Notes under the pieces: generated by a model
The model's database searches: none
Seen by the model: the letters and a program-made list of their open reading frames with translations, nothing else
Told to the model about the DNA's origin: nothing
Made by a program: the position numbers and the translations under genes
Origin: Escherichia coli phage Wa28
DNA length: 64,000 bases
Direction: 5' to 3' (one strand)
Sequence record: LC788710.1
Shown here: piece after piece, positions 5,999 to 38,861 of the stretch
Numbering within the stretch: position 1 is the first letter of the stretch
Layout of the letters: each line of letters opens with the position of its first letter

Positions 5999-6449
5999 GT
6001 TCTTCTCTCCGACGTTTGCGTTCTTTCATCATGTAAGCTGCTACAACTTCATGGTAGTAGTCGTTAATGTTACCTTCAGGCAAGAAATGCTTAATCGTTT
6101 CTAGCTGGCAGACAACACGGTAAAGATGTTTATTTGGTAAACATAATTTCATGCCCATAACAAATCCAGAGAAGCCTGGAACACTGAACATGGGTTGGGC
6201 TTCTACGTTGCCCTCTGGATTGATACTAAGTTCAATCGAGATGCCCATTTTCATGCTATAAAGCTGACAGCCTTCACCATTGCCAAATCTTGACCAAACA
6301 GTGAAGTCCTCATCTATCTGATCTTGGATTTCTTCGACTGCATGTTTAATTCTAGGGTCTAAATTACTCATCTTCACCTTCAAAGCCGCAGTCATAACGG
6401 CAAGTAAAAGAATCAGAACTATTAGTACGTTGAGTAGTGATTTCACCAC
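5952..6449 (-). CDS. hypothetical protein (N-terminal TM, basic C-terminus)
   Basis: ORF track 165 aa. Confidence 0.45.
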   Translation of the reverse strand: MVKSLLNVLIVLILLLAVMTAALKVKMSNLDPRIKHAVEEIQDQIDEDFTVWSRFGNGEGCQLYSMKMGISIELSINPEGNVEAQPMFSVPGFSGFVMGMKLCLPNKHLYRVVCQLETIKHFLPEGNINDYYHEVVAAYMMKERKRRREERERAKSQQSSTDSSN

Positions 6450-6663
6450 GTTTACTAACAGTAATAGCCGGAGTAGAGAAGTTTTTATTAGTATAGATTT
6501 CTACTTTGCCATTACGTTCTTTAACATCACGTACTTTACCATATTCGGTGGTAATGCCGTTCTGCTGAACTTTAACATTACCATTTTTCATAGAAACTTT
6601 GGTAGATGCCAGAGAACCGAAACTAACTGCTGAAATTACCAGAGCAATAATAAACTTATTCAT
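6364..6663 (-). CDS. small secreted protein (signal peptide); start moved to internal Met
   Basis: ATG at 6661-6663 with GAGGAAG SD; MNKFIIALVISAVSFGSLA signal peptide. Confidence 0.5.
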   Translation of the reverse strand: MNKFIIALVISAVSFGSLASTKVSMKNGNVKVQQNGITTEYGKVRDVKERNGKVEIYTNKNFSTPAITVSKRGEITTQRTNSSDSFTCRYDCGFEGEDE

Positions 6664-6937
6664 CAGGATCTTCCTCATTACAGTCACGGCATACATCATA
6701 ATCGTTGTAAGAATGTTCGTGCGCTTCACACCACCAGCCACATTCGTCACACAGAAAGATTTCGGTCTTTTCAATGGCTTGGCCTAGTAATTCGTAGGCT
6801 TCATCATGTGTAATCTTCAGGCTACAAACATCAGCTACTTGTTGAACAATCAGACTCCCTACTTTGTGGTAGGACATGCAGGTTCCTTGTGCATCATGCT
6901 CAAGGACGTGGATAGCACAGTCTAAGCGATTTTTCAT
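6656..6937 (-). CDS. cysteine-rich small protein (possible zinc-binding)
   Basis: 93 aa; CDECGWWCEAHEH...CRDCNEED; promoter plus SD directly upstream. Confidence 0.5.
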   Translation of the reverse strand: MKNRLDCAIHVLEHDAQGTCMSYHKVGSLIVQQVADVCSLKITHDEAYELLGQAIEKTEIFLCDECGWWCEAHEHSYNDYDVCRDCNEEDPDE

Positions 6938-6967
6938 TTCAAAGCCCTCTCATCAATTTATATAAAT

Positions 6968-6996
6968 ATTATATCAAAAGGAGAGGGTTTTAGCAA
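6968..6996 (-). promoter_or_regulatory. early promoter (-35 TTGCTA, 17 bp, -10 TATAAT)
   Basis: Reverse complement gives TTGCTA-N17-TATAAT then ATTTATATAAATTGATGAGAGG and ATG. Confidence 0.7.
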
Positions 6997-7013
6997 ATGA
7001 ATTATTTACGAAA

Positions 7014-7409
7014 TTAGTCGTAAACCCACCATAACCCACGCTTACGCAGGTCATGATCACGGTTATAGTCATAATTTTCTGGATCTTTCAGTACACGGTG
7101 AAGTTCGCGACGGCTTCCCTGACGAACCATTTTGTTAGAATGCCACTTAACACTTCTGCTAATAGAATCCCACCAGTGTCCATCTTTCTTCTCGTTACGG
7201 ATGATATTTTCCTGAATCTCCTTCTCAATTTCATCCCAAGTTTTAGCCCATGCTTCATTGGAGCGAACTTGATAATATTTCCACTGCTTACCATCCCTAT
7301 CCGTGTAGATATACGGAATACGGATATTAGTGCTATGAAAATTATAAGTAGAACGATGTGCAGCACGCCAGTGACGATCACCAGATTGTTTACGGTATGT
7401 ACGGCTCAT
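7014..7409 (-). CDS. hypothetical basic Trp-rich protein
   Basis: ORF track 131 aa. Confidence 0.45.
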   Translation of the reverse strand: MSRTYRKQSGDRHWRAAHRSTYNFHSTNIRIPYIYTDRDGKQWKYYQVRSNEAWAKTWDEIEKEIQENIIRNEKKDGHWWDSISRSVKWHSNKMVRQGSRRELHRVLKDPENYDYNRDHDLRKRGLWWVYD

Positions 7410-7467
7410 ATTACCTCCATTAAGTCTTTTAAATTAACTTAATGTGGGCGAACTTCAAAATATAACA

Positions 7468-7653
7468 TCAGTAATCTCCGTTGTCGTTGTATACTACCCC
7501 ACTGCTGGGGAGTTCTTCTACTGTCACATTTTCGAATTCTATAGAACTTCTATGGTTTCTAGCCAGTTCGATTGCTTCTTCCGCAGTTTCTGCAACGACA
7601 ATAGCTGTACCACCTAACCACAGACCTCTATAGCTCACTTTAAAAATTTTCAT
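7468..7653 (-). CDS. hypothetical small protein
   Basis: ORF track 61 aa. Confidence 0.4.
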   Translation of the reverse strand: MKIFKVSYRGLWLGGTAIVVAETAEEAIELARNHRSSIEFENVTVEELPSSGVVYNDNGDY

Positions 7654-7717
7654 TTCGAAAATCCTATATACAAGAAAACCCCAGACTACTTATTCAATAG
7701 CTGGGGTTTGTTATTAA

Positions 7718-8017
7718 TTAGATAATTTCTACAATATCCTGAGTTACAAAACCGTCGAATTCATCAGAGATACCACCTGTAAAGGTGATGCCCATAATCA
7801 TTGCATCCATCTTTTTAATCTCCGAGATTTTCATGCCTGCTTTACTATTCTTATAGTATTTGCGAGGATTCCCACACATCCAACAAGAACAGATGCAAGG
7901 AGTGGTAGTGATAATGCCTAACCGCTTAGGACTTTCTTCATGTGGGAAGACTGTCCAATACTTTTTGCGATTGTTTTTCACACGTTGCCGGTGATGGCGT
8001 CTTAATGCTCGATCCAC
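7718..8017 (-). CDS. hypothetical protein with Cys cluster
   Basis: 99 aa; CICSCWMCGNPRK. Confidence 0.45.
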   Translation of the reverse strand: MDRALRRHHRQRVKNNRKKYWTVFPHEESPKRLGIITTTPCICSCWMCGNPRKYYKNSKAGMKISEIKKMDAMIMGITFTGGISDEFDGFVTQDIVEII

Positions 8018-8098
8018 ACATTTCTCCTAAAACTTGGGAGATAAATGGAGTTTGCTCGACTACCTTGCGTAGTTGGTAGAAATCGTACCCAAACCCCA

Positions 8099-8467
8099 TT
8101 ACATCGCCTGAGTAAATGTACGACTAATAACGTCGTTCTGTTGTTCACGCGTCAATGCGTTAAATCGAACAGCATAGCCAGAGACACGGATGGTCAACTG
8201 AGGATATTTTTCAGGATGTTTCTGTGCATCCAAAAGCTGATCACGGCTTAACACATTGACATTTAGGTGCTGACCACCCTCGACTTGAGGAACCACTTCC
8301 ACATCTACAATGCGAAAGGCCTCAGGGTCAAAGTGAGGTGTGATACCTTCTAGATCTTCGACTAGAACTTTCTGTTTAAGTTCACCATCTTTAGAATATA
8401 GTTGAATGATCTGATTGTTATGAACAATGTTAATTACGCCAGACTTAAGACTTTGATATGCTTTCAT
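8099..8467 (-). CDS. autonomous glycyl radical cofactor (GrcA/YfiD-like)
   Basis: 122 aa; C-terminal [12 protein letters not shown]...[31 protein letters not shown] closely resembles the GrcA/pyruvate formate-lyase glycyl radical domain. Confidence 0.8.
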
Positions 8468-8832
8468 TAGATCTCCCTGATGTTAGAATTTGGCTCAGCT
8501 TTTTGTTAACCCAGAAGCAAGATAAAAACTGGAAGGCAGGCTTGCTTATTAAGTGAATACCCGATAATCGCTCGTAGTCCGGCTTGTGGATTGATAGTCC
8601 CATTCAGTTTAATAAGCACAGGAGCTTTGATTTTAACGTTGCGATCTTCCAGGTCTGTTGCAACTACGTGATTGCTCACGCTAAGACAATGGCTATCTAA
8701 AGTCTTAGCTTCTACATTTATACTCCTGGATAGCATGGAGTTGCAGTCTACTTCCTGCTGTCACGCCCGGCCATTTATAGAATGTGGACTCTCTTCTCAG
8801 CAGGATCTGGTACAATGACCTGATCCTCTGTT

Positions 8833-8908
8833 TGGTAGTTAGTAGTGGATTTGAACCACTGTAGTCGCTCCGTATGAAGGAGGTGCATAACCACTCTGCC
8901 AACTAACT
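8833..8908 (-). tRNA. tRNA-Met (anticodon CAT), manual call
   Basis: GTTCAAATCC T-arm, perfect 7-bp acceptor stem, encoded CCA, anticodon loop TTCATAC. Confidence 0.6.
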
Positions 8909-8914
8909 ATAATT

Positions 8915-8990
8915 TGGTACTCCGACTTGGGATCGAACCAAGATTTGACGATTATCGGTCGCCTGTTCTAACCGTTTGAACTATCGGAGC
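8915..8990 (-). tRNA. tRNA-Ile (anticodon GAT), manual call
   Basis: GGTTCGATCC T-arm, acceptor pairing, CCA end, anticodon loop CCGATAA. Confidence 0.6.
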
Positions 8991-8991
8991 A

Positions 8992-9285
8992 TTACATCAT
9001 TTCGTCTAAGTAAGAAGTATACTGGTATTTAGCTTCTCCAGTTTTATCTACTTCGACTTCTGTTCTAGGTACTTTTCGTACCAGACCGTGAATCATCTTG
9101 TACTGAATAGACTTAGATGGTTCGTGATCTTTTGGAAATACTTGTTTAACCGTTACTACTTTGAAGCCTTCACGAGGTGTTAGCACAACAACTTGATCAC
9201 CTTCTTTTATTTTCCAAGACTCAGGAAATTCGTAAGTGTAGCGTTGACCACCCGTTTGGAACACGACAGAAAGATAACGTTTCAT
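8992..9285 (-). CDS. hypothetical protein
   Basis: ORF track 97 aa; promoter module upstream. Confidence 0.5.
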   Translation of the reverse strand: MKRYLSVVFQTGGQRYTYEFPESWKIKEGDQVVVLTPREGFKVVTVKQVFPKDHEPSKSIQYKMIHGLVRKVPRTEVEVDKTGEAKYQYTSYLDEMM

Positions 9286-9315
9286 TTGGTTTCCCTCTCA
9301 TTAATTTATGTAAAT

Positions 9316-9344
9316 ATTATAACAAGAAATAAGAGAGAAGGCAA
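9316..9344 (-). promoter_or_regulatory. early promoter (-35 TTGCCT, -10 TATAAT)
   Basis: Conserved promoter module, reverse complement. Confidence 0.6.
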
Positions 9345-9359
9345 ATGAATTTTTAAATT

Positions 9360-9434
9360 TGGTGCTCCCACCAGGAATCGAACCCGGTTCAGATGCTTAC
9401 AAGGCAACTGCATCGCCAGCAATGCTTTAGGAGC
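9360..9434 (-). tRNA. tRNA-Thr (anticodon TGT), manual call
   Basis: GGTTCGATTCC T-arm, acceptor pairing with one G-U, CCA end. Confidence 0.55.
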
Positions 9435-9601
9435 AATAAACCCGTTATTTCAACGGAATTTCTTTTTCAAATACAGGAGACTTATCAGACATTACTGTCA
9501 TAGCCAACTGCTGTAGAAATTCGAATGAGAGTTTTAAACGTTCTTCACCCAACTCAACCTCAACACACTTCATTTGCTTATCAACCTTTAGCTTTAGATT
9601 A

Positions 9602-9823
9602 TCAGCCCTCTTCGGGTTCTCTTTGCTCAGCTATTGCTAGCCAGTCTGGTAAAAGAAACTTAGTACGAAATTCTTCATATGTTTCTTCTGGATGAAAGCT
9701 ATAGCCTTGCTTTTCATCATTTAATAAAACCGAACCGTCTTCCTGTTCATAAGCTCGGTATGTTTCACCAATAATTAAAACTCGTCTATTGGGGTTTTTA
9801 TTACGAAACTCAAAAACGTCCAT
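9602..9823 (-). CDS. hypothetical small protein
   Basis: ORF track 73 aa. Confidence 0.4.
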   Translation of the reverse strand: MDVFEFRNKNPNRRVLIIGETYRAYEQEDGSVLLNDEKQGYSFHPEETYEEFRTKFLLPDWLAIAEQREPEEG

Positions 9824-9838
9824 AACGTTTCCTTAAGT

Positions 9839-9913
9839 TGGTGCGGGATACGAGAGTCGAACTCGTGTCTACTGGTTGGAAGCCAGTTATTCTAGCCACT
9901 GAACTAATCACGC
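9839..9913 (-). tRNA. tRNA-Gly (anticodon TCC), manual call
   Basis: GAGTTCGACTC T-arm, CCA end, anticodon loop CTTCCAA. Confidence 0.55.
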
Positions 9914-9919
9914 ATAAAT

Positions 9920-9995
9920 TGGCTGGAGAAGGAGGAATCGAACCTACCATTAACGGAGTCAAAGGCCGTTGTGCTAACCGTTACACTACTCTCCA
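9920..9995 (-). tRNA. tRNA-Gln (anticodon TTG), manual call
   Basis: U1-A72 and discriminator G as in bacterial tRNA-Gln; loop CTTTGAC. Confidence 0.55.
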
Positions 9996-10001
9996 AGTAT
10001 T

Positions 10002-10077
10002 TGGCTGGGATGCCACGGATCGAACGTGGAACCTTCGGAGTCAGAGGCCGACGATCTGCCAATTGATCTACATCCCA
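10002..10077 (-). tRNA. tRNA-Gln (anticodon CTG), manual call
   Basis: U1-A72, discriminator G, loop CTCTGAC. Confidence 0.55.
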
Positions 10078-10084
10078 ATAATTT

Positions 10085-10285
10085 TTATTCTACAGGAACC
10101 GTGGCAATTGGATCTGGTTCTTCTAGACGTTTACCATTATGGTCAACACGAATAATACCACAACCTTCACAGATTACAACAGCACCATAGCCTTCTTTAA
10201 CTTCGGCTTCTGTAATCAGACCAGAAAGATCACCAGTATCTTTGCCCCACATATCGATAGAGCATTCTTTGCAGAAATCAGCCAT
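10085..10285 (-). CDS. hypothetical Cys-rich small protein
   Basis: 66 aa; CKEC...CEGC. Confidence 0.4.
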   Translation of the reverse strand: MADFCKECSIDMWGKDTGDLSGLITEAEVKEGYGAVVICEGCGIIRVDHNGKRLEEPDPIATVPVE

Positions 10286-10309
10286 ATTTTAGTTCCTGTA
10301 TAAGTTAAT

Positions 10310-10384
10310 TGGTGCATCCTCAGGGAATCGAACCCCGATCGTAAAGTTCGTAGCTTTACATTCTTTCCGTTGAAATAAGGACGC
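10310..10384 (-). tRNA. tRNA-Arg (anticodon ACG), manual call
   Basis: GGTTCGATTCCC T-arm, anticodon stem-loop GTAAAG-CTACGAA-CTTTAC. Confidence 0.55.
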
Positions 10385-10389
10385 ATATT

Positions 10390-10465
10390 TGGGGTGGCTA
10401 GTGGAATTCGAATCCACATAGGCCTGATTCACAATCAGGATCATTAACCAATTATGATATAGCCA
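10390..10465 (-). tRNA. tRNA-His (anticodon GTG), manual call
   Basis: Discriminator C, loop TTGTGAA, GGATTCGAATTCC T-arm. Confidence 0.6.
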
Positions 10466-10469
10466 CAAT

Positions 10470-10847
10470 TGAATACTATTAGGGGATGATCAGTCCTCCA
10501 TTTGGCCGTCTAAGGTACCAAAGTTAGTCATTCTGCGCACAGGTTTTTCTCCTGATTCTTTATTGCGAATGCTCTCTAATAATACTCAATTGTGGCGGCT
10601 CTCCGAAACTCTTCTACTCTAGCCTTAGCAGCTTACTCCCGAACGCATGTCGGGAAAGTCTTACTAAGAACATCAAATAGCACCGTTACACTTTGAGCCA
10701 TTAATGTATCAAGAAGCAGAAGGACTTGAACCTTCACGAGATAGACCATTTATCTCAGCCTCGTTTTCGGGTATCTTATGAGGAGTGGATGTTCCCCTTA
10801 CGCCCTTTAGGAAGCCCCGTCTACCGATTCCGGCATACTTCAAGATT
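10470..10847 (-). other. ORF-free segment inside tRNA cluster with T-arm-like motif; candidate degenerate tRNAs or small RNAs
   Basis: No ORF of 60 aa or more on the transcribed strand; GAAGGTTCAAGTCCTTC motif (reverse complement near 10720) without an obvious acceptor partner. Confidence 0.3.
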
Positions 10848-10937
10848 TGGCAGAAGATAATGGAGTCGAACCATCACCGTATCACTACAGCGGGCCGGTT
10901 TTCAAGACCGGTTACGTACCACTACGTCCTATCTTCT
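10848..10937 (-). tRNA. tRNA-Ser (anticodon TGA), class II, manual call
   Basis: Long variable arm, anticodon stem-loop CCGGT-CTTGAAA-ACCGG, CCA end. Confidence 0.55.
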
Positions 10938-11164
10938 AGTATTTGTTCTACTTCTTTTCGAAGATCTTCTGGATTATCATGATAGGTTGTTTGCCATACA
11001 TAAATAACTCCAGTATCACATGCTTTATCAAATATTTCTCGCTCAGGAAGTTTCATGCCCATTGCGTACTTGATATGAAACTCTAAAGCTTGCTTACTAG
11101 GGAATGTATGACGCAAGAAAAACTTATCATTAACTAAATCCAACATCATAATCTTGACTTTCAT
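10922..11164 (-). CDS. hypothetical protein
   Basis: ORF track 80 aa; 3' end overlaps the called tRNA 5' end. Confidence 0.4.
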   Translation of the reverse strand: MKVKIMMLDLVNDKFFLRHTFPSKQALEFHIKYAMGMKLPEREIFDKACDTGVIYVWQTTYHDNPEDLRKEVEQILEDRT

Positions 11165-11185
11165 TTATATTCCCTATTAGTTGTT

Positions 11186-11278
11186 TGGCGGAAGAAGAGA
11201 GATTCGAACTCTCAAGCCTGCTTTAACAAGTCAGCCACTTTCCAAGCGGTTTTCGTCACCTAATCGATTTGCTCTTCC
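11186..11278 (-). tRNA. tRNA-Ser (anticodon GGA?), class II, manual call
   Basis: GAGTTCGAATCTC T-arm, long variable region, loop TTGGAAA. Confidence 0.45.
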
Positions 11279-11452
11279 GTAGATCTCAGGATTAAATCAT
11301 AAACTTCATTAGCAGATACTGGAAGTATGAGATTATACATCTTTTGGTCATACCTCTGACCATACTCTATAAACACATACTCTTTAGTTAATGTATTAAC
11401 AGCTAACCAGATATCAGTTATAGGAGTTTTCATCATGAGTTAATCCAATGTT

Positions 11453-11533
11453 TGGTAGGGATGGAGGGACTCGAACCCACACCCGAAGACTAGAACCTAA
11501 ATCTAGCGCGTCTGCCAATTTCGCCACATCCCC
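11453..11533 (-). tRNA. tRNA-Leu (anticodon TAG), manual call
   Basis: Anticodon stem-loop CTAGA-TTTAGGT-TCTAG, extended variable arm, CCA end. Confidence 0.55.
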
Positions 11534-11540
11534 ATTTTAT

Positions 11541-11759
11541 TTAGTTAGAAATAAATAGTAACCCTGCAACAATGGAACCTATGCCACTGAATACCATTAT
11601 CAGCATAGCTTCTAAGCTGATAAAGCGGACGTTATATGGAGCGCCCCAAGAATAATCAGTAAAGAAAGTTTTCTTTTCTTTAGCTAAATCTTTAATAGTT
11701 CTAAAATAGATAGCTAGTGCTAAAGCTACAAGAACTACAGAGGCTGCTAAGAATACCAT
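11541..11759 (-). CDS. small membrane protein
   Basis: 72 aa, two hydrophobic helices. Confidence 0.45.
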   Translation of the reverse strand: MVFLAASVVLVALALAIYFRTIKDLAKEKKTFFTDYSWGAPYNVRFISLEAMLIMVFSGIGSIVAGLLFISN

Positions 11760-11778
11760 ATTATTTCCTTAATTTGTT

Positions 11779-11854
11779 TGGTGGAGTCACTCAGAATTGA
11801 ACTGAGTTCCACTGCTTGCAAGGCAGTAAGTTTAACCAAATAACCTATGACCCC
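11779..11854 (-). tRNA. tRNA-Ala (anticodon TGC), manual call
   Basis: G3-U70 pair, anticodon stem-loop ACTGC-CTTGCAA-GCAGT, CCA end. Confidence 0.6.
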
Positions 11855-11859
11855 GAATT

Positions 11860-11938
11860 TGGTGGAGAATAAGAGATTCGAACTCTTCTGATATCCTCGG
11901 TGCAAGCGAGGTGTCCACTCCAAGCAGACCCATTCCCC
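11860..11938 (-). tRNA. second tRNA-Ala-like gene (anticodon TGC), slightly longer, manual call
   Basis: G3-U70, anticodon stem-loop CCTCG-CTTGCAC-CGAGG; D-arm not resolved. Confidence 0.45.
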
Positions 11939-12200
11939 AAAATCTTTAAGTTTACTAAGGCTATTAGCTCGGTGTGCGTATTACCCTCAGACATTAGCCA
12001 GTAGAGGATAACCGCTCTTCACAAACCCGATACACTATTCAGTTGCCGCTGAATCTAGTGGACTAATCTAGAACTTATTGCAAAGTATCCCCCGCCATTA
12101 AGGGTCTACTTGCAATTGTGCTTTTTGGCAGCCAGTCCTAGGTCGAGCTAATACCTTAGTGAACTTTGATGAGGATTTCTCCTCATCAATTTATATAAAT

Positions 12201-12229
12201 ATTATAACAAGAAATTAAGCATCAAGCAA
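12201..12229 (-). promoter_or_regulatory. early promoter (-35 TTGCTT, -10 TATAAT) driving downstream noncoding leader and tRNAs
   Basis: Conserved module; overlaps stop of upstream ORF. Confidence 0.6.
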
Positions 12230-12581
12230 GTACATTTTTAGCGATTTCTTGTATTTCCTTAACGTCACTAACGAAAAGGTAATCAGAGCTTCCAGAGTGC
12301 ATACTCTGCATAACCACACCATCCTCTGGTGCATCTTCTTTCAAAGTAATACCTAACCAGAACTCGGCAAAACTAGGTGTTACCTCACCTTGACTTGCCT
12401 TGAATACATCGGCTTCTGTGATCTCCTGACCAGTAGAGAGTCCCATGTACGGTACGTTCAGATCAATATCTTTGTAAAACTCAGCTAGATCTTGTTCGAA
12501 GTCCCAACCTTTAGAGATAGCGAACTCCATTGTTACATGACCGAAATAGCCTTGAACCTTGCTTGATAATTGCATTTGCAA
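12222..12581 (-). CDS. hypothetical protein
   Basis: ORF track 119 aa. Confidence 0.5.
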   Translation of the reverse strand: MQMQLSSKVQGYFGHVTMEFAISKGWDFEQDLAEFYKDIDLNVPYMGLSTGQEITEADVFKASQGEVTPSFAEFWLGITLKEDAPEDGVVMQSMHSGSSDYLFVSDVKEIQEIAKNVLA

Positions 12582-12600
12582 TTCCTTATTTTGAGTTAAT

Positions 12601-12674
12601 TGGTACTCGGTGATAGAATCGAACTATCGCAACCGCCGTGTAAAGACGGGGTTCTCCCATTAAACTAACCGAGC
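12601..12674 (-). tRNA. tRNA with atypical anticodon arm (identity undetermined), manual call
   Basis: T-arm GTTCGATTC and acceptor pairing present; anticodon hairpin CCGT-CTTTAC-ACGG appears to have a 6-nt loop. Confidence 0.4.
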
Positions 12675-12678
12675 AATT

Positions 12679-12756
12679 TGGTGGATTGCCTGGGATTCGA
12701 ACCCAGAACTGACGGATTAAAGGTCCGCTACTCTTATCCGGTTGAGCTAGCAATCC
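12679..12756 (-). tRNA. tRNA-Lys (anticodon TTT?), manual call
   Basis: GGGTTCGAATCCC T-arm, loop CCTTTAA (C at position 33 is unusual). Confidence 0.5.
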
Positions 12757-13220
12757 AATTTTTCTACTAATAATTTAAAAGCATCTAGTACAGGTACTTC
12801 AAACCATTCCCCGGATACTCTGTAGTCTTTGAGAAGATTATGTAACTCTTTCTCCGTACGTCTTTTATCTGACGAAAATCTGAAATGGTGTAGCTTGTAG
12901 TCTCTATTAGGTGAATAGGTTTGATAACTTGCTAACCTCTCATTTACATCTATAGTCATACCTATTTTATACATGCCTGGCCATGCGGGATTACCGATTA
13001 CATATACAAAACCTTCCGTTATAGGTATTTTATGTTCTCTTTTGTATTTTAAGAGATTTAAAGCTGCCATTCGATAACAGAATTTAAATTCTGAAGTTTT
13101 TAACTTACCCTCTTTACCAGAAATTTCATTATATTTGCTCATATAAGCTCTTATAAGCTTATCATCTATAATAAAATTATCAGGAAGGTTTAAGGCAGCT
13201 AAAACTTTATTAATTAGCAT
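12747..13220 (-). CDS. T5orf172-domain protein (GIY-YIG-like putative homing endonuclease)
   Basis: 157 aa; motif FVYVIGNPAWPGMYKIGMTIDVNERLASYQ. Confidence 0.6.
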   Translation of the reverse strand: MLINKVLAALNLPDNFIIDDKLIRAYMSKYNEISGKEGKLKTSEFKFCYRMAALNLLKYKREHKIPITEGFVYVIGNPAWPGMYKIGMTIDVNERLASYQTYSPNRDYKLHHFRFSSDKRRTEKELHNLLKDYRVSGEWFEVPVLDAFKLLVEKLDC

Positions 13221-13374
13221 AAACTTCCTTAATAGAGTAGACTTTCAAGTAAGGATGATTAATACCAAATTCCGCCATTACTTCATTTTCATCTTTACCA
13301 TAATGGGCTAGTGGATACTTCTTACGATCTTTACTAGAACGTAAATCACTTACTTTTAAACGAAATAATTTCAT
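13210..13374 (-). CDS. small ORF (54 aa) missed by ORF track
   Basis: ATG at 13372-13374 with AAGGA SD; ends overlapping start of downstream gene. Confidence 0.35.
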   Translation of the reverse strand: MKLFRLKVSDLRSSKDRKKYPLAHYGKDENEVMAEFGINHPYLKVYSIKEVYAN

Positions 13375-13395
13375 TTCGAAATCCTTCTATTAAAT

Positions 13396-13472
13396 TGGAA
13401 GCGGGTGCAGGAATCGAACCTACCTCTTTCTAGCTTATGAGACTAGCGATCTCTACCAGAGATCTAACCCGC
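13396..13472 (-). tRNA. tRNA with CAT anticodon (Met/fMet candidate), manual call
   Basis: Loop CTCATAA; apparent mismatch at acceptor pair 1:72, which suggests initiator-like. Confidence 0.5.
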
Positions 13473-13479
13473 AATTGTT

Positions 13480-13557
13480 TGGTCTCCGTGGGAGGATTTG
13501 AACCCCCGACCCTATCGCCCCAAACGAAACGCTCTAGCCAAACTGAGCTACACGGAG
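13480..13557 (-). tRNA. tRNA-Pro (anticodon TGG), manual call
   Basis: GGGGGTTCAAATCCTCC T-arm, loop TTTGGGG, CCA end. Confidence 0.55.
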
Positions 13558-13589
13558 AATATTCTTTGTTAACTCACTTTATAAAATAT

Positions 13590-13618
13590 ATTATACAGAG
13601 AATTAAGCTAAATAGCAA
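13590..13618 (-). promoter_or_regulatory. early promoter (-35 TTGCTA, -10 TATAAT) upstream of tRNA-Pro and the CAT tRNA
   Basis: Conserved module. Confidence 0.6.
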
Positions 13619-13872
13619 CTACATTTTTTAATAAATTTACTTATTGCGTAGGCCACCTGGAGGGTTCAAGCCCCACGGCTGACAAAGAAGTTTGCGAGAC
13701 TTCTCTTAAACGCCAGAATAGACCCGCCGATCTATCGGAACCTACTCAATAAGTAAACTTTCGTTTACCTACACCTACCTGGTCGGGAGGATTTTCAGCG
13801 ACTAGAACCGGCCGGAAACTCATCGCCTTGTTTATCTAGGAGTCCGTTCTCTAGGAAGCAGAAACCTAAATT

Positions 13873-13946
13873 TGGTGCGGTCGGAGGGAATCGAACCCTC
13901 AACTTCTGGTTGGCAACCAAAAATTATACCTTTTAACTACGAACGC
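13873..13946 (-). tRNA. tRNA-Gly (anticodon GCC), manual call
   Basis: GAGGGTTCGATTCCCTC T-arm, loop TTGCCAA. Confidence 0.55.
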
Positions 13947-14159
13947 ATAATAAGTCAATCTAGGCAGGACTTGAACCTGCTATCACTTGTGCGGATTTAC
14001 GAGAACCATTCTTTCACTCGAATCGAACGAGCTTCTACCCTCGGCAAGCTGGTGTCCCCTCTCCACCACGCTAGAATGATAATTAGTGCCTGCTCCTTTG
14101 AATCAAGAAGTCCACCCCGGACTTTGGGTCTTTGCAGTACATCACGCTGCTCTGATGTT
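13947..14159 (-). other. ORF-free segment with two T-arm-like motifs; candidate degenerate tRNAs or small RNAs
   Basis: GCAGGTTCAAGTCCTGC and CTCGTTCGATTCGAG (reverse complement) without clean acceptor partners. Confidence 0.3.
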
Positions 14160-14236
14160 TGGTACACCCACTAGGACTTGAACCTAGAACCTACCGCTTA
14201 AGAGGCGGTAGCTCTAACCAATTGAGCTATGGATGT
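14160..14236 (-). tRNA. tRNA-Lys (anticodon CTT?), manual call
   Basis: CTAGGTTCAAGTCCTAG T-arm, anticodon stem-loop ACCGC-CTCTTAA-GCGGT. Confidence 0.5.
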
Positions 14237-14242
14237 ATAATT

Positions 14243-14317
14243 TGGCGGTACTAAGGGTAATCGAAACCCTACCTCTCCCGTGACAGGGGAGTATCCTAAC
14301 CGTTAGACTATAGTACC
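14243..14317 (-). tRNA. tRNA-Asp (anticodon GTC), manual call
   Basis: Discriminator G, anticodon stem-loop CTCCC-CTGTCAC-GGGAG. Confidence 0.6.
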
Positions 14318-14889
14318 TTTAACTTTTTAAGTTCTTTAGGATTGCCTCCTAAAGAAGTGTATCTTTTACGCAACCCATTATCTGAATAACTTAACTTTCT
14401 CCCTGCACCTGACCAGCCTAGCTCTCTTACTGTAACCTCGATTATTTCTTTAGTTATAGAGATATCTTTTGGTTTATGTGAAGAGCACTCCTGACATTTT
14501 TCAGCTTTTAAAGAAATAGCTTTACCACAATCCTTACAACAATTATCATGGTTTAGTTTACTAAATCCTTTATCTTTTAAAGTCTTTTCTAGATGCTGCT
14601 CTTTTGTGAGCACTTGTAAGTTATTAAGACCCCAATAAGTAATGTCTGTGTTAATATGGTCAACTTCTAGTTCAGAGTCTAGACTTGGTAATTTCTTAAA
14701 TGCACATGCTAAAATCCTATGTACACCGGTATTTCTCTGTTGACCATTTTTATGGAGACGTATAGATAAGTATCCGTAATTACTGGTTATTTGGGTTAGT
14801 ATTTTGTTTGATTTGATACTAAATACTAACCCATCCAAACTTACTAAGTACTCCTCAAACCCTGGAATGGGTAAGGATATTCCGTGCAT
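14308..14889 (-). CDS. HNH homing endonuclease
   Basis: 193 aa; GYLSIRL...VHRILACAF...EVDHINTDITYWGLNNLQVLT, C-terminal Cys cluster. Confidence 0.65.
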   Translation of the reverse strand: MHGISLPIPGFEEYLVSLDGLVFSIKSNKILTQITSNYGYLSIRLHKNGQQRNTGVHRILACAFKKLPSLDSELEVDHINTDITYWGLNNLQVLTKEQHLEKTLKDKGFSKLNHDNCCKDCGKAISLKAEKCQECSSHKPKDISITKEIIEVTVRELGWSGAGRKLSYSDNGLRKRYTSLGGNPKELKKLKVL

Positions 14890-14892
14890 AAT

Positions 14893-15078
14893 TTACTCAG
14901 TTTTGAGTTTTTCGATAGCTTCCTCAACCTCTTTTAGAGCTTCACGACGCTCTACTTGACCTTGAAGTTCTTCAAGAAGTTCAGCTTTCAGAGCCTTAAT
15001 AATATTACCACGAACCTTAATATTATTAATCAGATTATCACGATCAGCTTCTAGTCGAGCAATTGCACGAGTTGTCAT
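14893..15078 (-). CDS. small coiled-coil protein
   Basis: ORF track 61 aa. Confidence 0.4.
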   Translation of the reverse strand: MTTRAIARLEADRDNLINNIKVRGNIIKALKAELLEELQGQVERREALKEVEEAIEKLKTE

Positions 15079-15181
15079 ATCTATTTCCTCAGTTGTTAAT
15101 GAAAAATGGTATCTGTGACTGAATTCGATATCAGCAATGATAGCTGGTTGGCTACCGGTTTACTTAACTCTACACAGAATA

Positions 15182-15264
15182 TGGCGGGCCGTGTAGGATT
15201 CGAACCTACGTTGTCTTTCGACATGGATTAACAGTCCACCGCCAAACCGCTTGGCTAACGACCC
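15182..15264 (-). tRNA. tRNA, anticodon read as GTT (Asn?) but with long variable region; manual call
   Basis: Perfect T-arm GTAGGTTCGAATCCTAC, acceptor pairing, CCA end, loop CTGTTAA, 13-nt variable region. Confidence 0.45.
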
Positions 15265-15271
15265 TAAAATT

Positions 15272-15347
15272 TGGACGACCGCATGAGATTCGAACTCACA
15301 TAAGGAGGTTTTGCAGGCCTCCGCCTAAGCCATTCAGCCAACGGTCG
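15272..15347 (-). tRNA. tRNA-Cys (anticodon GCA), manual call
   Basis: Anticodon stem-loop GGAGG-(C)CTGCAAA(A)-CCTCC; GAGTTCGAATCTC T-arm. Confidence 0.5.
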
Positions 15348-15525
15348 ATTTATCTTGCTTTTCGAGATTAGTAAACTCTAGATCTTTAGAATGTCCTATA
15401 GATCTAGCATAATAGCCATCTCCAGCATCGTAGCCTGATTTACCGCACTCACACATCTTAAACTCTCTATAATGAGTGAAAATATGTTCAGAACCACAAC
15501 ACTTAAATTTAACTAACATTTTCAT
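15334..15525 (-). CDS. small Cys-rich protein
   Basis: 63 aa; CCGSEH...CECGKSGYD. Confidence 0.4.
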   Translation of the reverse strand: MKMLVKFKCCGSEHIFTHYREFKMCECGKSGYDAGDGYYARSIGHSKDLEFTNLEKQDKSTVG

Positions 15526-15764
15526 TTAACACGCTCCGGTAAATCTTCGAGTTTATATTGAGTAGCCACATTAGCAGCATCTAGTAACAAACCCATATGT
15601 TTAAGAATCCTAGTGATAGCCTCGCCTTCTGCTTCTTCTACAAAAGTGCGTAGTTGAATGAAGTCAATACCCCCATCCATACCAGAGAAAATGTTTAGTA
15701 AGCGAAGCATTACCAGCTTACGTTCTTTCAATTCTTGTTCTGTCATGTTGCTTCTCCAGTTCAA
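15522..15764 (-). CDS. hypothetical protein
   Basis: ORF track 80 aa; promoter module upstream. Confidence 0.45.
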   Translation of the reverse strand: MNWRSNMTEQELKERKLVMLRLLNIFSGMDGGIDFIQLRTFVEEAEGEAITRILKHMGLLLDAANVATQYKLEDLPERVK

Positions 15765-15775
15765 TTTATGTAATA

Positions 15776-15804
15776 ATTATACAGAACTTTAAGCGGTTAA
15801 GCAA
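15776..15804 (-). promoter_or_regulatory. early promoter (-35 TTGCTT, -10 TATAAT)
   Basis: Conserved module. Confidence 0.6.
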
Positions 15805-16075
15805 CTACATTTTTTAAGAATTTGATGCCTTTCTTTTTCTTCTTATATTTCCACGTTAACGGGTTCTGTCGATTATGAACGCTTGAGATCTTTGTCTCGT
15901 CAAAGTTCTTCAAAACCATGTAATCACAGGCCAACTGTTCTAGTGGGATGTGATCTCCATCAAAAGCATAAACATAAGGCTGTTGACTAGCACGATAATG
16001 ATAGACTTTGTTAATTCTGCGTTTCAGTGACTTATCCGCACAGTAAATAAAGAAGTTTTCAGGATGCATCAGCAT
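15797..16075 (-). CDS. hypothetical protein
   Basis: ORF track 92 aa. Confidence 0.4.
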   Translation of the reverse strand: MLMHPENFFIYCADKSLKRRINKVYHYRASQQPYVYAFDGDHIPLEQLACDYMVLKNFDETKISSVHNRQNPLTWKYKKKKKGIKFLKNVVA

Positions 16076-16086
16076 CTCCTTAAAAT

Positions 16087-16161
16087 TGGTGCACCCTGTT
16101 CGTATCGAACGAACCTCTCAAGCTCTTCAGGCAAGCGCTAATCCATCTCAGCTAAAGGTGC
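16087..16161 (-). tRNA. tRNA, anticodon not resolved by eye
   Basis: GTTCGTATCGAAC T-arm with 5-bp stem, acceptor pairing, CCA end. Confidence 0.4.
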
Positions 16162-16167
16162 AAATAT

Positions 16168-16243: not shown

Positions 16244-16252
16244 TGCAGAAAT

Positions 16253-16811: not shown

Positions 16812-16829
16812 ATCCTTTACCTTTAATTT

Positions 16830-17321: not shown

Positions 17322-17351
17322 TCGTTAACTCCTTCATCAATTTATATAACT

Positions 17352-36986: not shown

Positions 36987-38861
36987 ATGAATCGCAATGA
37001 AGAACTAAAGTATAAAGGAATGCAGTCCTTGATTCGAAACTGCAAAGAAATTATCGAAGGTTCAGCAGATGAAGAGCTGCTGTTTAATAATGCCAATAAG
37101 CCCTCAGAACGTTTCCCTACACAAAGGGATATGCTTGCAGGGGAATTGAGTAAATATCTGATTCTGGAAGAAATGCCGATCCAGATTCGAAATGCTCACA
37201 TGATTGGTGATATTCACTTCCATGATGCTGATTACGCTGCGTTAGGTATGACTAACTGTTGCCTGGTTGCTTTGGAAGATATGTTGAAGAATGGTATGAA
37301 GGTTGGTAATGCTGAAATCAGTACGCCAAACTCTATCACTACTGCGGCTGCTATTACAGCTCAGATTATCACTCAGGTTAGCTCACACCAATATGGTGGT
37401 ACTTCTGTAGACCGATTAGATGAAGTATTGGCTCCTTATGTTCGTAAGTCTTATGATAAGAATCATGCGTTTGCAAAACGTTGGACTAAGGATGAAGCCA
37501 AAGCATCTGTAATGGCTACGGAAATGACTGAGAAAGAAGTTTACGATGCCTGCCAGGGTCTAGAGTACGAAATCAATACGATGTTCAACTCTAATGGTCA
37601 GAGTCCATTTATTACCTTTGGTTTCGGTTTAGGAACTTCTTGGGAAGCACGTCTTGTACAGAAAGCAATCTTAGAAGTGCGTATGGATGGTTTGGGTATC
37701 AATAAACGTACTGCTATCTTCCCTAAACTGGTATTTGTTCTACGTGACGGCGTAAACATGAAACCTGGCGATGTTAACTATGATATCAAGAAGTTAGCTA
37801 TGAAGTGTACTGCTGAACGTATGTATCCGGACTATATCAGCTATGATAAGGTTGTAGAAGTTACGGGGGACTACAAAGTCTCTATGGGCTGTCGTTCATT
37901 CCTGGCTGCTGCGGAAGATGGTGAAACTTCTGGTCGTAACAACTTAGGCGTTGTTTCCGTAAACCTTCCTCGAATCGCTATCGAAGCGGAAGGAAATATT
38001 GATCTATTCTTCGATCTGCTTGAGCTGCGTGTGGATACCGCGTTAAAAGCATTGGAGTGGAGGGTTGATCGCTTAAAATACATTCAAGCTAAAGCTGCGC
38101 CCATCCTCTATATGTCAGGAGCCTTTGGATTACGTCTGGGGCCAGATGAATATGTATTTGATCATTTCTACAAGCGTGCTTCTGTATCCCTAGGATATAT
38201 TGGCTGCCACGAAATGTTGCAGCTCATGTTTGGTAAAGATGTAGATACAATGTCTGAGTCTTGTATCAAGTTCGTTCAACGTGTGCTACAATACATGCGT
38301 GATCGTGCTGATCAGAAGAAGGAAGAGACTCAATTAGGGTATAGTCTGTATGCTACACCATCTGAATCTCTATGTGATCGCTTCTGTCGCCTAGACCGTG
38401 AGTATTTCCCAGAGCATGAAGATATTCTGGCTAAAGGATATTACACTAATTCCCATCACCTTGATGTAGAACGTAAGGTTGCTCCAAATGTGAAGTTTGA
38501 TTATGAGTCTAACTTTACTCCTATTGCTTCTGGTGGGTGCATTTCCTATGTGGAATTACCTGATATGAAACGATTCCCTGATGCATTGGAATGGGTTATT
38601 AACTATGCTGCAAGTAAAGTTCATTACTTCGGTATTAATACTCCAGTAGACTCTTGTGGGGAATGCGGGTTCTTGGGTGAAACTATAGCTTCTGAGGATG
38701 GTTTCAAATGTCCAATTTGTGGCAATCATGATCCTGAGACTCTTGAGGTAACTCGTCGAGTTTGTGGATATCTTGGAAATCCAGGTGCTCGTCCGTTTAA
38801 CCCAGGTAAACAACATGAGGTTATGGGTCGAGTGAAACATCAAGACATTCGCGCTAAATAA
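36987..38861 (+). CDS. nrdD: anaerobic ribonucleoside-triphosphate reductase (class III)
   Basis: 624 aa; C-terminal CPICGNHD zinc site and RRVCGYLG glycyl radical motif. Confidence 0.85.
   Translation: MNRNEELKYKGMQSLIRNCKEIIEGSADEELLFNNANKPSERFPTQRDMLAGELSKYLILEEMPIQIRNAHMIGDIHFHDADYAALGMTNCCLVALEDMLKNGMKVGNAEISTPNSITTAAAITAQIITQVSSHQYGGTSVDRLDEVLAPYVRKSYDKNHAFAKRWTKDEAKASVMATEMTEKEVYDACQGLEYEINTMFNSNGQSPFITFGFGLGTSWEARLVQKAILEVRMDGLGINKRTAIFPKLVFVLRDGVNMKPGDVNYDIKKLAMKCTAERMYPDYISYDKVVEVTGDYKVSMGCRSFLAAAEDGETSGRNNLGVVSVNLPRIAIEAEGNIDLFFDLLELRVDTALKALEWRVDRLKYIQAKAAPILYMSGAFGLRLGPDEYVFDHFYKRASVSLGYIGCHEMLQLMFGKDVDTMSESCIKFVQRVLQYMRDRADQKKEETQLGYSLYATPSESLCDRFCRLDREYFPEHEDILAKGYYTNSHHLDVERKVAPNVKFDYESNFTPIASGGCISYVELPDMKRFPDALEWVINYAASKVHYFGINTPVDSCGECGFLGETIASEDGFKCPICGNHDPETLEVTRRVCGYLGNPGARPFNPGKQHEVMGRVKHQDIRAK

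What the first reader, a model, noticed from the sequence alone, without database searches (positions are those of the whole stretch)
8099..8467. GrcA-like glycyl-radical spare-part protein carried alongside a class III ribonucleotide reductase
The C-terminal ~60 residues of the 122-aa protein closely resemble the glycyl radical domain of GrcA/pyruvate formate-lyase (RVSGYAVRF). Together with nrdD (36987-38861) this suggests the phage can support anaerobic dNTP synthesis or repair oxygen-damaged glycyl-radical enzymes. No activase gene was recognised in the window.
Basis: partly seen in the sequence, partly recalled or inferred. Interest (0 to 1): 0.45.

Follow-up and report, generated by a model that had tools for sequence, protein, structure and literature searches.

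The report
T5-like phage GrcA spare-part protein
This is the T5-like phage version of a small "spare part" protein that is already known from E. coli (GrcA/YfiD) and phage T4 (Y06I) to restore oxygen-damaged pyruvate formate-lyase, so the finding is real but ordinary.

Summary
Window 8099-8467 (minus strand) encodes a 122-aa protein. Its last 62 residues are 77-79% identical to the C-terminus of E. coli PflB and to GrcA, and it keeps the full RVSGYAV radical motif (radical Gly = G97).

The window comes from a T5-like phage (Demerecviridae, about 98% identical to Shin27, faergetype and TrudiRoth). The gene is the ortholog of T5.056 and a full-length relative (51% identity) of T4 vs.6/Y06I. Y06I is one of only two biochemically validated spare parts. 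Close relatives already annotate the gene as "glycyl radical cofactor".

It is under strong purifying selection (dN/dS 0.06). It sits in an early operon: P11-like promoter, tRNAs, this gene, a 99-aa ORF, then a terminator.

nrdD (36987-38861) is real and of the T4/E. coli formate-using type. It lies 28.5 kb away on the other strand. The spare part resembles PFL, not NrdD.

No NrdG- or PflA-type activase is present in the window or in a complete close relative, as already published for T5-likes. Both radical proteins must therefore use host activases.

The likely role is to keep host PFL working in low oxygen, giving acetyl-CoA and ATP plus the formate that NrdD consumes. Already known; low interest.

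The parts
8099..8467 (-). grcA-like gene (ortholog of T5.056; homolog of T4 vs.6/Y06I), 122 aa
   Evidence: ORF list and sequence. Pfam PF01228. PHROG 1209 full length, 160 bits. PDB GrcA and PflB hits. 100% identical protein in phages Wa28 and NBSal002. dN/dS 0.056 across 29 T5-like alleles.
8162..8188 (-). Codons for RVSGYAVRF (aa 94-102). The radical glycine G97 is codon 8177-8179. This is the recognition motif of PFL-activating enzyme.
   Evidence: Read directly from the sequence. R94-F102 are invariant in the 16-sequence alignment; in the 68-sequence alignment all are invariant except V100, which is >=90% conserved. Both alignments include phage and bacterial homologs.
8099..8284 (-). C-terminal half (aa 62-122): PFL-type glycyl radical domain
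   Evidence: 77% identical to PflB 698-759 and 79% to GrcA 66-127. The AF2 model matches the YfiD NMR structure 6owr (TM 0.73 on the target) and PFL 2pfl. dN/dS 0.011.
8285..8467 (-). N-terminal half (aa 1-61): lineage-specific, diverged counterpart of the GrcA N-terminal half
   Evidence: Not matched by the GrcA HMM TIGR04365. Only aa 50-60 align to bacterial GrcA by BLASTP. hhalign gives a colinear but marginal match to the N-halves of other phages (E 0.017), and those match bacterial GrcA (E 7e-5). dN/dS 0.10. AF2 predicts beta strands with pLDDT 83-89, and does the same for bacterial GrcA.
8473..8478 (-). Shine-Dalgarno AGGGAG, 5 nt before the ATG
   Evidence: Read from the sequence.
9316..9344 (-). 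Sigma-70 promoter (TTGCCT-17-TATAAT with an extended -10 TG), homolog of T5 early promoter P11. Probable start of the transcription unit.
   Evidence: Promoter scan, 10/12 matches. 93% identical to the annotated T5 P11 region.
8833..8990 (-). tRNA-Ile(GAU) and tRNA-Met(CAU), between the promoter and the grcA-like gene on the same strand
   Evidence: ARAGORN and Rfam. T5 has the same order.
7718..8017 (-). 99-aa Cys-rich ORF (T5.055 homolog, PHROG 4499, function unknown), the last gene of the unit
7672..7708 (-). Rho-independent terminator (AACCCCAG, 16-nt loop, CTGGGGTT, then a T run)
   Evidence: Sequence, nearly identical to the annotated T5 terminator after T5.055. The automatic scan missed it because the loop is longer than 8 nt.
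36987..38861 (+). nrdD, class III ribonucleotide reductase of the T4/E. coli (formate-using) type, without an ATP-cone. A possible indirect beneficiary through formate.
   Evidence: Pfam NRDD 574.6 bits. T4 NrdD 1h78 E 1e-175. Conserved TNCC, MGCRSFL finger loop, GRNNLG, CxxCx14CxxC and RRVCGYLG. 54% identical to E. coli NrdD from residue 113 onward.

Best explanation
The gene encodes a phage-borne autonomous glycyl-radical cofactor, a 'spare part' for host pyruvate formate-lyase (PFL).

It is expressed early from a sigma-70 promoter, together with phage tRNAs. The proposed steps are:
1. When oxygen cleaves host PflB at its radical glycine (G734), the 122-aa protein docks into the damaged enzyme.
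2. Its C-terminal half replaces the lost PflB C-terminus.
3. Host PFL-activating enzyme (PflA) installs a radical on G97 through the RVSGYAV motif.
4. That radical is passed to PflB Cys419, which restores pyruvate conversion to acetyl-CoA plus formate.

The payoff for the phage would be continued fermentative ATP and acetyl-CoA production in low-oxygen hosts. T5-type phages shut down the host, so it can no longer make its own GrcA or PflB. The phage would also keep a supply of formate, the reductant of its T4/E. coli-type NrdD.

The phage encodes no activase, so both of its radical proteins depend on host PflA and NrdG.

What is shown: gene, motif, homology, selection, operon context, absence of an activase, and NrdD subtype. 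What is inferred: activation by PflA, docking to cleaved PFL, and the physiological benefit, including the formate link.
For: Homology:
- Pfam Gly_radical E 4e-18.
- Best solved relatives are YfiD/GrcA (2e-29) and PflB (8e-27).
- 48/62 and 49/62 identities to the PflB and GrcA C-termini.
- Full-length 51% identity to T4 vs.6/Y06I, and both belong to PHROG 1209.

Precedent: Y06I and YfiD are the two validated spare parts. They are activated by PFL-AE and restore O2-cleaved PFL (PMC8683613, citing Wagner 2001, pmid 11444864). GrcA also rescues PflB G734A in vivo (PMC12338860).

Conservation: all of RVSGYAV and about 30-39 further C-half positions are invariant or nearly invariant across phage and bacterial homologs.

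Selection: dN/dS is 0.056 overall, 0.011 in the C-half and 0.10 in the N-half.

Structure: the AF2 model superposes on the YfiD NMR structure and on PFL.

Expression signals: SD sequence, P11-like promoter and terminator.

No activase; full relative genome; literature.

NrdD: it carries the T4/E. coli catalytic signature, and those enzymes use formate (PMC4493059). PflB and TdcE are the formate sources in E. coli (PMC5600444).

Co-occurrence: the sampled lineages that carry the gene (T5-like, T4-like, about 350-kb Klebsiella/Escherichia jumbo phages, large Vibrio phages) also show class III RNR genes in at least some members.
Against: - No biochemical or genetic data exist for any T5-type protein.
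- The N-terminal half is needed in YfiD for binding cleaved PFL and for efficient activation (PMC8683613). Here it is barely recognisable as homologous to GrcA: hhalign finds no direct match, and the only link is a chain through other phage versions at E 0.017.
- The protein scores below the NCBIfam GrcA equivalog cutoff (119 against 170 bits). The validated T4 Y06I also falls below it (151 bits).
- The formate/NrdD coupling is pure inference. The genes are unlinked.
- Other enterobacterial phage groups with nrdD/nrdG (Felix O1-like, rV5-like) did not appear among the sampled carriers of the gene.
Confidence: 0.78

Rival explanations
1. It is a spare part for a different glycyl-radical enzyme. 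Candidates are the phage's own (or the host's) oxygen-cleaved NrdD, or another host GRE such as TdcE. The diverged N-terminal half would provide the new targeting.
For: The N-half is lineage-specific yet under purifying selection (dN/dS 0.10). nrdD is in the same genome. The field has speculated that spare parts for other GREs exist (PMC8683613). TdcE is a close PflB paralog, so rescue of TdcE would be a minor variant of the main explanation (PMC5600444).
Against: The radical domain is PFL-type throughout (77% identical to PflB). It has no detectable similarity to the phage NrdD (E 17), whose radical loop is RRVCGYLGNP and is preceded by a Zn ribbon. The RVSGYAV motif is the PflA substrate motif, not the NrdG one. 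T4, which has both NrdD and NrdG, carries the same kind of protein, and that protein was shown to act on PFL (PMC8683613).
Confidence: 0.06
2. It acts as a decoy or regulator rather than a repair part. By competing for PflA, or by occupying PFL, it would redirect or damp host fermentative flux during infection.
For: It keeps a perfect PflA recognition motif. The phage brings no activase, so it necessarily draws on the host PflA pool.
Against: The whole C-half is nearly invariant, including the parts that replace PflB structure and not just the activase motif (dN/dS 0.011). The T4 homolog restores activity rather than inhibiting it (PMC8683613).
Confidence: 0.07
3. It is a non-functional remnant of a captured 3' end of host pflB or grcA, carried passively.
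For: It is a small gene in a region of many small hypothetical ORFs and indels. For example, a 365-nt spacer upstream is absent in T5.
Against: The reading frame is intact, with an RBS, in all 31 copies examined. Synonymous differences outnumber non-synonymous ones about 3:1 overall and about 13:1 in the C-half. The gene is present in hundreds of T5-like genomes and, in all, in 1583 phage records.
Confidence: 0.02

Closest known systems
Phage T4 vs.6 / Y06I (autonomous glycyl radical cofactor, NP_049730)
   Same: A stand-alone phage protein of about 120 aa. It aligns over its full length at 51% identity and belongs to the same PHROG 1209. It has the same RVSGYAVRF motif and starts with the same MKAYQ. 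Y06I is biochemically validated as a PFL spare part activated by PFL-AE (PMC8683613).
   Different: The T4 C-half is 59/62 identical to E. coli GrcA, whereas the window's is 49/62 and is equally distant from PflB. The T4 N-half is detectably homologous to GrcA's (BLASTP E 7e-5), whereas the window's is not. T4 encodes its own NrdG next to nrdD, and the T5-like phage encodes no activase. The genomic contexts are unrelated.
E. coli GrcA / YfiD (b2579; PDB 6owr)
   Same: Same size class. The C-terminal radical domain is 79% identical. The predicted fold matches the NMR structure. The presumed mechanism and activase (PflA) are the same.
   Different: The N-terminal 50 residues are unrelated at the pairwise and HMM level. 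The protein is below the TIGR04365 cutoff. It is phage-encoded and expressed from a phage early operon with tRNAs, rather than under host stress, pH or anaerobic control.
C-terminal glycyl radical domain of pyruvate formate-lyase PflB (residues 698-759; PDB 1h16/2pfl)
   Same: 48/62 identical, including G734-equivalent G97. Even the C-terminal ending TQAM resembles PflB's TQSM.
   Different: It lacks the roughly 700-residue catalytic barrel with Cys418/Cys419. The GenBank annotations of this gene as 'pyruvate formate-lyase', 'acetyltransferase-related protein' or 'ribonucleotide reductase subunit' are therefore misnomers.
T5.056 of phage T5 and orthologs in Epseptimavirus/Tequintavirus (e.g. 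faergetype gp136 'glycyl radical cofactor')
   Same: Orthologous: 91-100% identity and the same position at the edge of the tRNA cluster, followed by the T5.055 homolog and the same terminator.
   Different: Only allelic differences, plus a 365-nt insertion between tRNA-Met and the gene relative to T5.

Membership tests
Autonomous glycyl radical cofactor (GrcA/YfiD/Y06I spare-part proteins) | Small stand-alone protein (about 120-130 aa) that lacks the GRE catalytic barrel | tested here: met
   122-aa ORF bounded by stops, with its own RBS.
Autonomous glycyl radical cofactor (GrcA/YfiD/Y06I spare-part proteins) | C-terminal glycyl radical domain with the radical Gly in an RVSGYAV motif | tested here: met
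   Pfam PF01228 at 66 bits against a 22-bit cutoff. RVSGYAVRF at aa 94-102, with G97.
Autonomous glycyl radical cofactor (GrcA/YfiD/Y06I spare-part proteins) | The radical domain specifically mimics the PflB C-terminus (residues ~698-759) | tested here: met
   48/62 identical to PflB and 49/62 to GrcA. The model superposes on 6owr and 2pfl.
Autonomous glycyl radical cofactor (GrcA/YfiD/Y06I spare-part proteins) | N-terminal half homologous to that of GrcA (needed for binding cleaved PFL) | tested here: inconclusive
   No direct match to bacterial GrcA N-halves. The only link is a marginal colinear match to other phage N-halves (E 0.017), and those match GrcA (E 7e-5). The predicted beta-rich architecture is similar to that of GrcA.
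Autonomous glycyl radical cofactor (GrcA/YfiD/Y06I spare-part proteins) | Scores above the NCBIfam TIGR04365 equivalog cutoff (170 bits) | tested here: not met
   119 bits, with only aa 54-122 matching. This is a curation threshold tuned to bacterial GrcA, not a functional criterion. The validated T4 Y06I scores 151, T5.056 scores 121.5, and other phage versions score 135-137, all below the cutoff. E. coli GrcA scores 234.
Autonomous glycyl radical cofactor (GrcA/YfiD/Y06I spare-part proteins) | Glycyl radical installed by PFL-activating enzyme (PflA) | not testable with these tools
   Only the substrate motif can be checked (present). No phage activase exists, so host PflA would be required.
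Autonomous glycyl radical cofactor (GrcA/YfiD/Y06I spare-part proteins) | Restores activity to O2-cleaved PFL | not testable with these tools
   Shown only for YfiD and T4 Y06I (PMC8683613).
PHROG 1209 (phage GrcA-like proteins, includes T4 vs.6) | Full-length match to the family profile | tested here: met
   160.3 bits, aa 1-122 on profile positions 1-121. T4 vs.6 scores 208 bits on the same profile.
Pyruvate formate-lyase / formate C-acetyltransferase (as annotated in several GenBank records) | Catalytic barrel of about 750 aa with the Cys418/Cys419 pair | tested here: not met
   Only profile positions 683-744 of 744 in TIGR01255 are matched: 85 bits against a 994-bit cutoff.
Class III RNR system NrdD+NrdG (context claim) | The reductase is accompanied by its radical-SAM activase NrdG | tested here: not met
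   NrdD is present. No NrdG is found in the window or in the complete faergetype genome. NrdG occurs in 2280 other phage records, none of them T5-like in the 60 rows sampled. nrdD without nrdG has been published for many phages, and the nrdD-phoH-nrdAB layout for T5, EPS7 and SPC35 (PMC3653736).

The most novel reading that the evidence does not exclude
The T5-type protein may be more than a copy of the PFL repair part. Its N-terminal half is diverged and lineage-specific but clearly under selection. That half could direct the PFL-type radical domain to a partner other than oxygen-cleaved PflB, for example the phage's own cleaved NrdD or another host glycyl-radical enzyme. Alternatively, it could let the protein take over intact, unactivated PFL. 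Either case would be the first spare part with a non-canonical target, in a phage that relies entirely on host activases.
Probability: 0.05. Interest if true: 0.55.

Novelty: already known. Interest (0 to 1): 0.18.

Why it matters
The finding matters little as a discovery. The protein family, its phage members and the absence of nrdG in T5-like phages are all documented.

It does have three modest uses:
- It corrects common misannotations of this gene ('pyruvate formate-lyase', 'acetyltransferase-related protein', 'ribonucleotide reductase subunit').
- It documents that T5-like phages carry two glycyl-radical proteins but no activase, so anaerobic or microaerobic infection should depend on host PflA and NrdG.
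- It gives a testable rationale for gut phages: keep PFL alive to supply ATP and the formate that NrdD consumes.

The T5-type N-terminal half is also a natural variant for probing how spare parts recognise damaged PFL.

Tried and rejected
- Activase in the window: a CX3CX2C scan of all six frames found only the 99-aa ORF 7718-8017, which is too short and has no Pfam hit. tblastn with T4 and E. coli NrdG against the window and the complete faergetype genome gave only noise.
- The 99-aa Cys-rich neighbour as a partner of the spare part: the linkage is T5-lineage synteny only, and the ORF is absent next to T4 vs.6 and in the non-T5 loci. Dropped.
- Spare part for NrdD: there is no similarity between the two proteins.
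- A folded N-terminal domain as a T5-specific novelty: AF2 predicts confident beta strands, but the control run on bacterial GrcA gives the same picture, even though NMR shows that region disordered in solution. The prediction is therefore not discriminating.
- Failure of the NCBIfam GrcA cutoff as evidence against membership: rejected, because the validated T4 Y06I also fails it.
- Terminator scan: the automatic scan found no minus-strand terminator. Manual comparison with the T5 annotation found a conserved one with a 16-nt loop.
- An Rfam scan of 6000-24000 found only tRNAs.
- A 109-kb Salmonella phage with an NrdG hit looked like a possible T5-like exception, but it belongs to the Ounavirinae.
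- A quantitative genome-wide co-occurrence of the grcA-like gene with nrdD could not be computed, because the search tool returns only sampled rows.

Full report
**1. What is there**

Window 8099..8467 (minus strand) is an intact 122-aa ORF with an ATG start. A Shine-Dalgarno sequence, AGGGAG, lies five nucleotides upstream. Residues 94-102 read RVSGYAVRF, and the radical glycine is G97 (codon GGC at 8179..8177).

Pfam assigns residues 62-103 to the glycine-radical domain PF01228 (66.3 bits, cutoff 22.2, E 4e-18). Among solved structures the best matches are E. coli YfiD/GrcA (6owr, E 2e-29) and pyruvate formate-lyase PflB (1h16, E 8e-27). Residues 61-122 align without gaps to PflB 698-759. 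The identity over these 62 residues is as follows (E. coli GrcA sequence taken from MG1655):

| Comparison | Identical residues |
|---|---|
| Window protein vs PflB 698-759 | 48/62 |
| Window protein vs E. coli GrcA 66-127 | 49/62 |
| Window protein vs T4 vs.6 | 47/62 |

**2. Where the window comes from**

The region is 97-99% identical to T5-like phages of the Demerecviridae (genus Epseptimavirus). These include Escherichia phage Shin27, Salmonella phages faergetype and S114, and Escherichia phage TrudiRoth.

The identical protein is already deposited for phages Wa28 and NBSal002. Orthologs at 91-99% identity carry a mix of names: 'glycyl radical cofactor', 'pyruvate formate-lyase', 'acetyltransferase-related protein', 'ribonucleotide reductase subunit' and 'hypothetical protein'. 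In T5 itself the gene is T5.056, 'putative acetyltransferase-related protein'.

A tblastn search finds relatives in 1583 phage records. T5-likes match at more than 90% identity. T4-likes match at about 50% over the full length. About 350-kb jumbo phages and large Vibrio phages match mainly in the C-half. T4's copy is vs.6, historically Y06I, which RefSeq annotates as GrcA.

**3. Relation to the known spare parts**

According to PMC8683613 (citing Wagner et al. 2001, pmid 11444864), YfiD/GrcA of E. coli and Y06I of T4 are the only two validated spare parts. PFL-activating enzyme installs a glycyl radical on them, and they restore activity to PFL that oxygen has cleaved at G734. In YfiD the C-terminal half (61-127) is structured and mimics the PflB C-terminus. 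The N-terminal half (1-60) is disordered in solution but is needed for binding cleaved PFL and for efficient activation. GrcA also rescues a PflB G734A variant in vivo (PMC12338860).

The window protein aligns with T4 vs.6 over its full length (51% identity, E 3e-38). Both are full-length members of PHROG 1209 (160 and 208 bits).

The GrcA equivalog model TIGR04365 matches only residues 54-122 and scores 119 bits, below its 170-bit cutoff. This is not informative about function, as the control scores show:

| Protein | TIGR04365 score (bits) |
|---|---|
| E. coli GrcA | 234 |
| T4 Y06I (validated) | 151 |
| Other phage versions | 135-137 |
| T5.056 | 121.5 |
| Window protein | 119 |

**4. The N-terminal half**

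By BLASTP, only residues 50-60 of the window protein resemble bacterial GrcA. The T4 N-half, in contrast, is detectably homologous to GrcA's (E 7e-5).

I ran profile-profile comparisons of N-halves with the last 11 residues removed. The results form a chain:
- Other-phage type against bacterial GrcA: E 7e-5, colinear.
- T5-type against other-phage type: E 0.017, colinear over 43 columns.
- T5-type against bacterial GrcA: no match.

The T5-type N-half is therefore best read as a strongly diverged derivative that contains a different central segment.

AlphaFold2 gives a confident beta-rich N-half (pLDDT 83-89). The control run on bacterial GrcA gives the same result, although NMR finds that region disordered. 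The prediction therefore does not distinguish the two proteins. The C-half of the model superposes on the YfiD NMR structure (TM 0.73 on the target, 80% identity) and on PFL.

**5. Is the gene functional?**

Thirty T5-like loci from IMG/VR, together with the window, gave 29 distinct alleles, all with intact frames. Median pairwise dN/dS values were:

| Region | dN/dS |
|---|---|
| Whole gene | 0.056 |
| N-half | 0.10 |
| C-half | 0.011 |

The RVSGYAV motif is essentially invariant in 16- and 68-sequence alignments spanning phages and bacteria: every position is fully invariant in the first, and all but V100 (>=90% conserved) in the second. A further 30-39 or so C-half positions are invariant or nearly so. 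A decaying gene fragment is excluded.

**6. Expression context**

The gene lies at the edge of a 29-gene tRNA cluster, all on the minus strand. The order along the minus strand is:
1. A sigma-70 promoter at 9344..9316 (TTGCCT-17-TATAAT with TG), which is 93% identical to the annotated T5 early promoter P11.
2. A 97-aa ORF.
3. tRNA-Ile and tRNA-Met.
4. A 365-nt spacer that T5 lacks.
5. The grcA-like gene.
6. A 99-aa Cys-rich ORF (T5.055 homolog, PHROG 4499).
7. A hairpin-plus-T-run at 7708..7672, nearly identical to the annotated T5 rho-independent terminator.

The gene is thus part of an early, host-RNA-polymerase-dependent unit.

**7. The class III reductase and the missing activase**

The ORF at 36987-38861 (+) is a bona fide NrdD: Pfam NRDD 574.6 bits, T4 NrdD structure E 1e-175, and 54% identity to E. 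coli NrdD.

It keeps several signatures:
- the T4 active-site residues (TNCC with the Cys79 equivalent);
- the MGCRSFL finger loop, with the Met and the Cys290 equivalent;
- GRNNLG;
- the CxxCx14CxxC zinc site;
- the RRVCGYLG radical loop.

These place it with the enzymes that use formate as reductant (PMC4493059). It lacks the ATP-cone, as T4 NrdD does. Its radical loop is almost identical to that of E. coli NrdD, which is consistent with activation by host NrdG. That last point is an inference.

nrdD is 28.5 kb from the grcA-like gene, on the opposite strand. The two proteins share no detectable similarity (E 17).

No activase gene exists in the window or in a close relative:
- There is no radical-SAM CX3CX2C motif in any ORF of at least 60 aa, apart from the 99-aa ORF.
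- tblastn with T4 or E. coli NrdG finds nothing in the window or in the complete genome of faergetype (best E 0.4).
- No activase is annotated in the faergetype genome.
- NrdG homologs occur in 2280 phage records. In a 60-row sample spread down the ranking these were T4-like, Felix O1-like, rV5-like, Vibrio and other phages, and none was T5-like. The one 109-kb candidate belongs to the Ounavirinae.

Dwivedi et al. 2013 already reported that many phages carry nrdD without nrdG, and that T5, EPS7 and SPC35 have the nrdD-phoH-nrdAB layout (PMC3653736).

**8. Mechanism proposed**

*Shown:* a selected, expressed, stand-alone PFL-type glycyl radical domain with an intact activase motif, in a phage without any activase.

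*Inferred from the T4 and E. coli precedents:* host PflA installs the radical on G97. The protein docks into oxygen-cleaved host PflB and hands the radical to Cys419, which restores pyruvate cleavage to acetyl-CoA and formate.

*Inferred physiology:* T5-type phages shut down and degrade the host genome early (established T5 biology, from my own knowledge). The cell can then no longer replace PflB or GrcA, and a phage-encoded spare part would sustain fermentative ATP production in microaerobic hosts such as those in the gut. PflB and TdcE are the cell's formate sources (PMC5600444), and T4/E. coli-type NrdD consumes formate. The same repair would therefore also feed the phage's anaerobic dNTP synthesis.

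**9. Rivals**

- *A spare part for NrdD or another GRE.* This is disfavoured by the thoroughly PFL-type sequence and by the T4 precedent.
- *A decoy for PflA.* This is disfavoured by the near-invariance of the whole C-half and by the rescue activity of Y06I.
- *A pseudogene.* This is excluded by the selection analysis.

**10. Verdict**

The finding is real and correctly interpreted, but it describes a known gene family in a known genomic setting. Novelty: already known. Interest is low (0.18). The only mildly open point is what the diverged but conserved T5-type N-terminal half does.

Noticed in passing
window 7718-8017 (-): A 99-aa ORF (GTG start) with the Cys cluster TPCICSCWMCGNPRK, which is the only CX3CX2C match in the window. 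It belongs to PHROG 4499 (unknown function), has no Pfam hit, and is the T5.055 homolog. It lies 85 nt downstream of the grcA-like gene in every T5-like locus where it was found, and is absent next to T4 vs.6. It is too short to be a radical-SAM activase, and its function is unknown.
   Followed up: partly
window 8468-8832: A 365-nt spacer between tRNA-Met and the grcA-like gene. T5 lacks it and has only a 13-nt gap. It contains a 76-aa ORF (8506-8736, minus strand) whose first 49 residues match PHROG 19031, possibly an extended or frame-altered copy of a 64-aa hypothetical gene seen in faergetype.
   Followed up: partly
window 8833-22292 (-), and 22825-22896 (-): A cluster of 29 tRNA genes, all on the minus strand and interleaved with small ORFs, as is typical of T5-like phages. 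Rfam adds one borderline tRNA-like hit at 22825-22896 (29.3 bits against a 29-bit cutoff) that ARAGORN did not call.
   Followed up: no
window 36987-38861 (+): The phage NrdD begins at the equivalent of E. coli NrdD residue ~113, so it lacks the N-terminal ATP-cone (as T4 NrdD does). Its C-terminal radical loop (VTRRVCGYLGNPGARPFNPGKQ) is nearly identical to that of E. coli NrdD, which fits reliance on host NrdG.
   Followed up: partly
window 39617-40468 (+) and neighbours: Downstream of nrdD lies a 283-aa ORF that corresponds to the gene annotated 'Sir2 (NAD-dependent deacetylase)' in faergetype. The relatives also annotate nicotinamide-nucleotide adenylyltransferase (NadR-like) and a PnuC-like transporter elsewhere in the early region, which amounts to an NAD-metabolism gene set.
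   Followed up: no
T4 locus L002:7558-7920 and NCBIfam TIGR04365: The biochemically validated T4 Y06I scores 151 bits, below the 170-bit trusted cutoff of the GrcA equivalog model. All tested phage versions fall below it (119-151 bits). HMM-based annotation will therefore systematically miss or misname the phage spare parts.
   Followed up: yes
AF2 models m6b71675d9ed0 (window protein) and m70d0a150a6e8 (bacterial GrcA P0072): AlphaFold2 predicts a confident 5-strand beta arrangement for the N-terminal half of both the phage protein and bacterial GrcA. NMR reports YfiD residues 1-60 as disordered in solution. This may reflect a fold adopted on binding PFL, or over-prediction.
   Followed up: partly
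window 7014-7409 (-): A 131-aa ORF that matches Pfam DUF7295 over its full length (192 bits). It is a conserved phage protein of unknown function, two genes downstream of the terminator.
   Followed up: no
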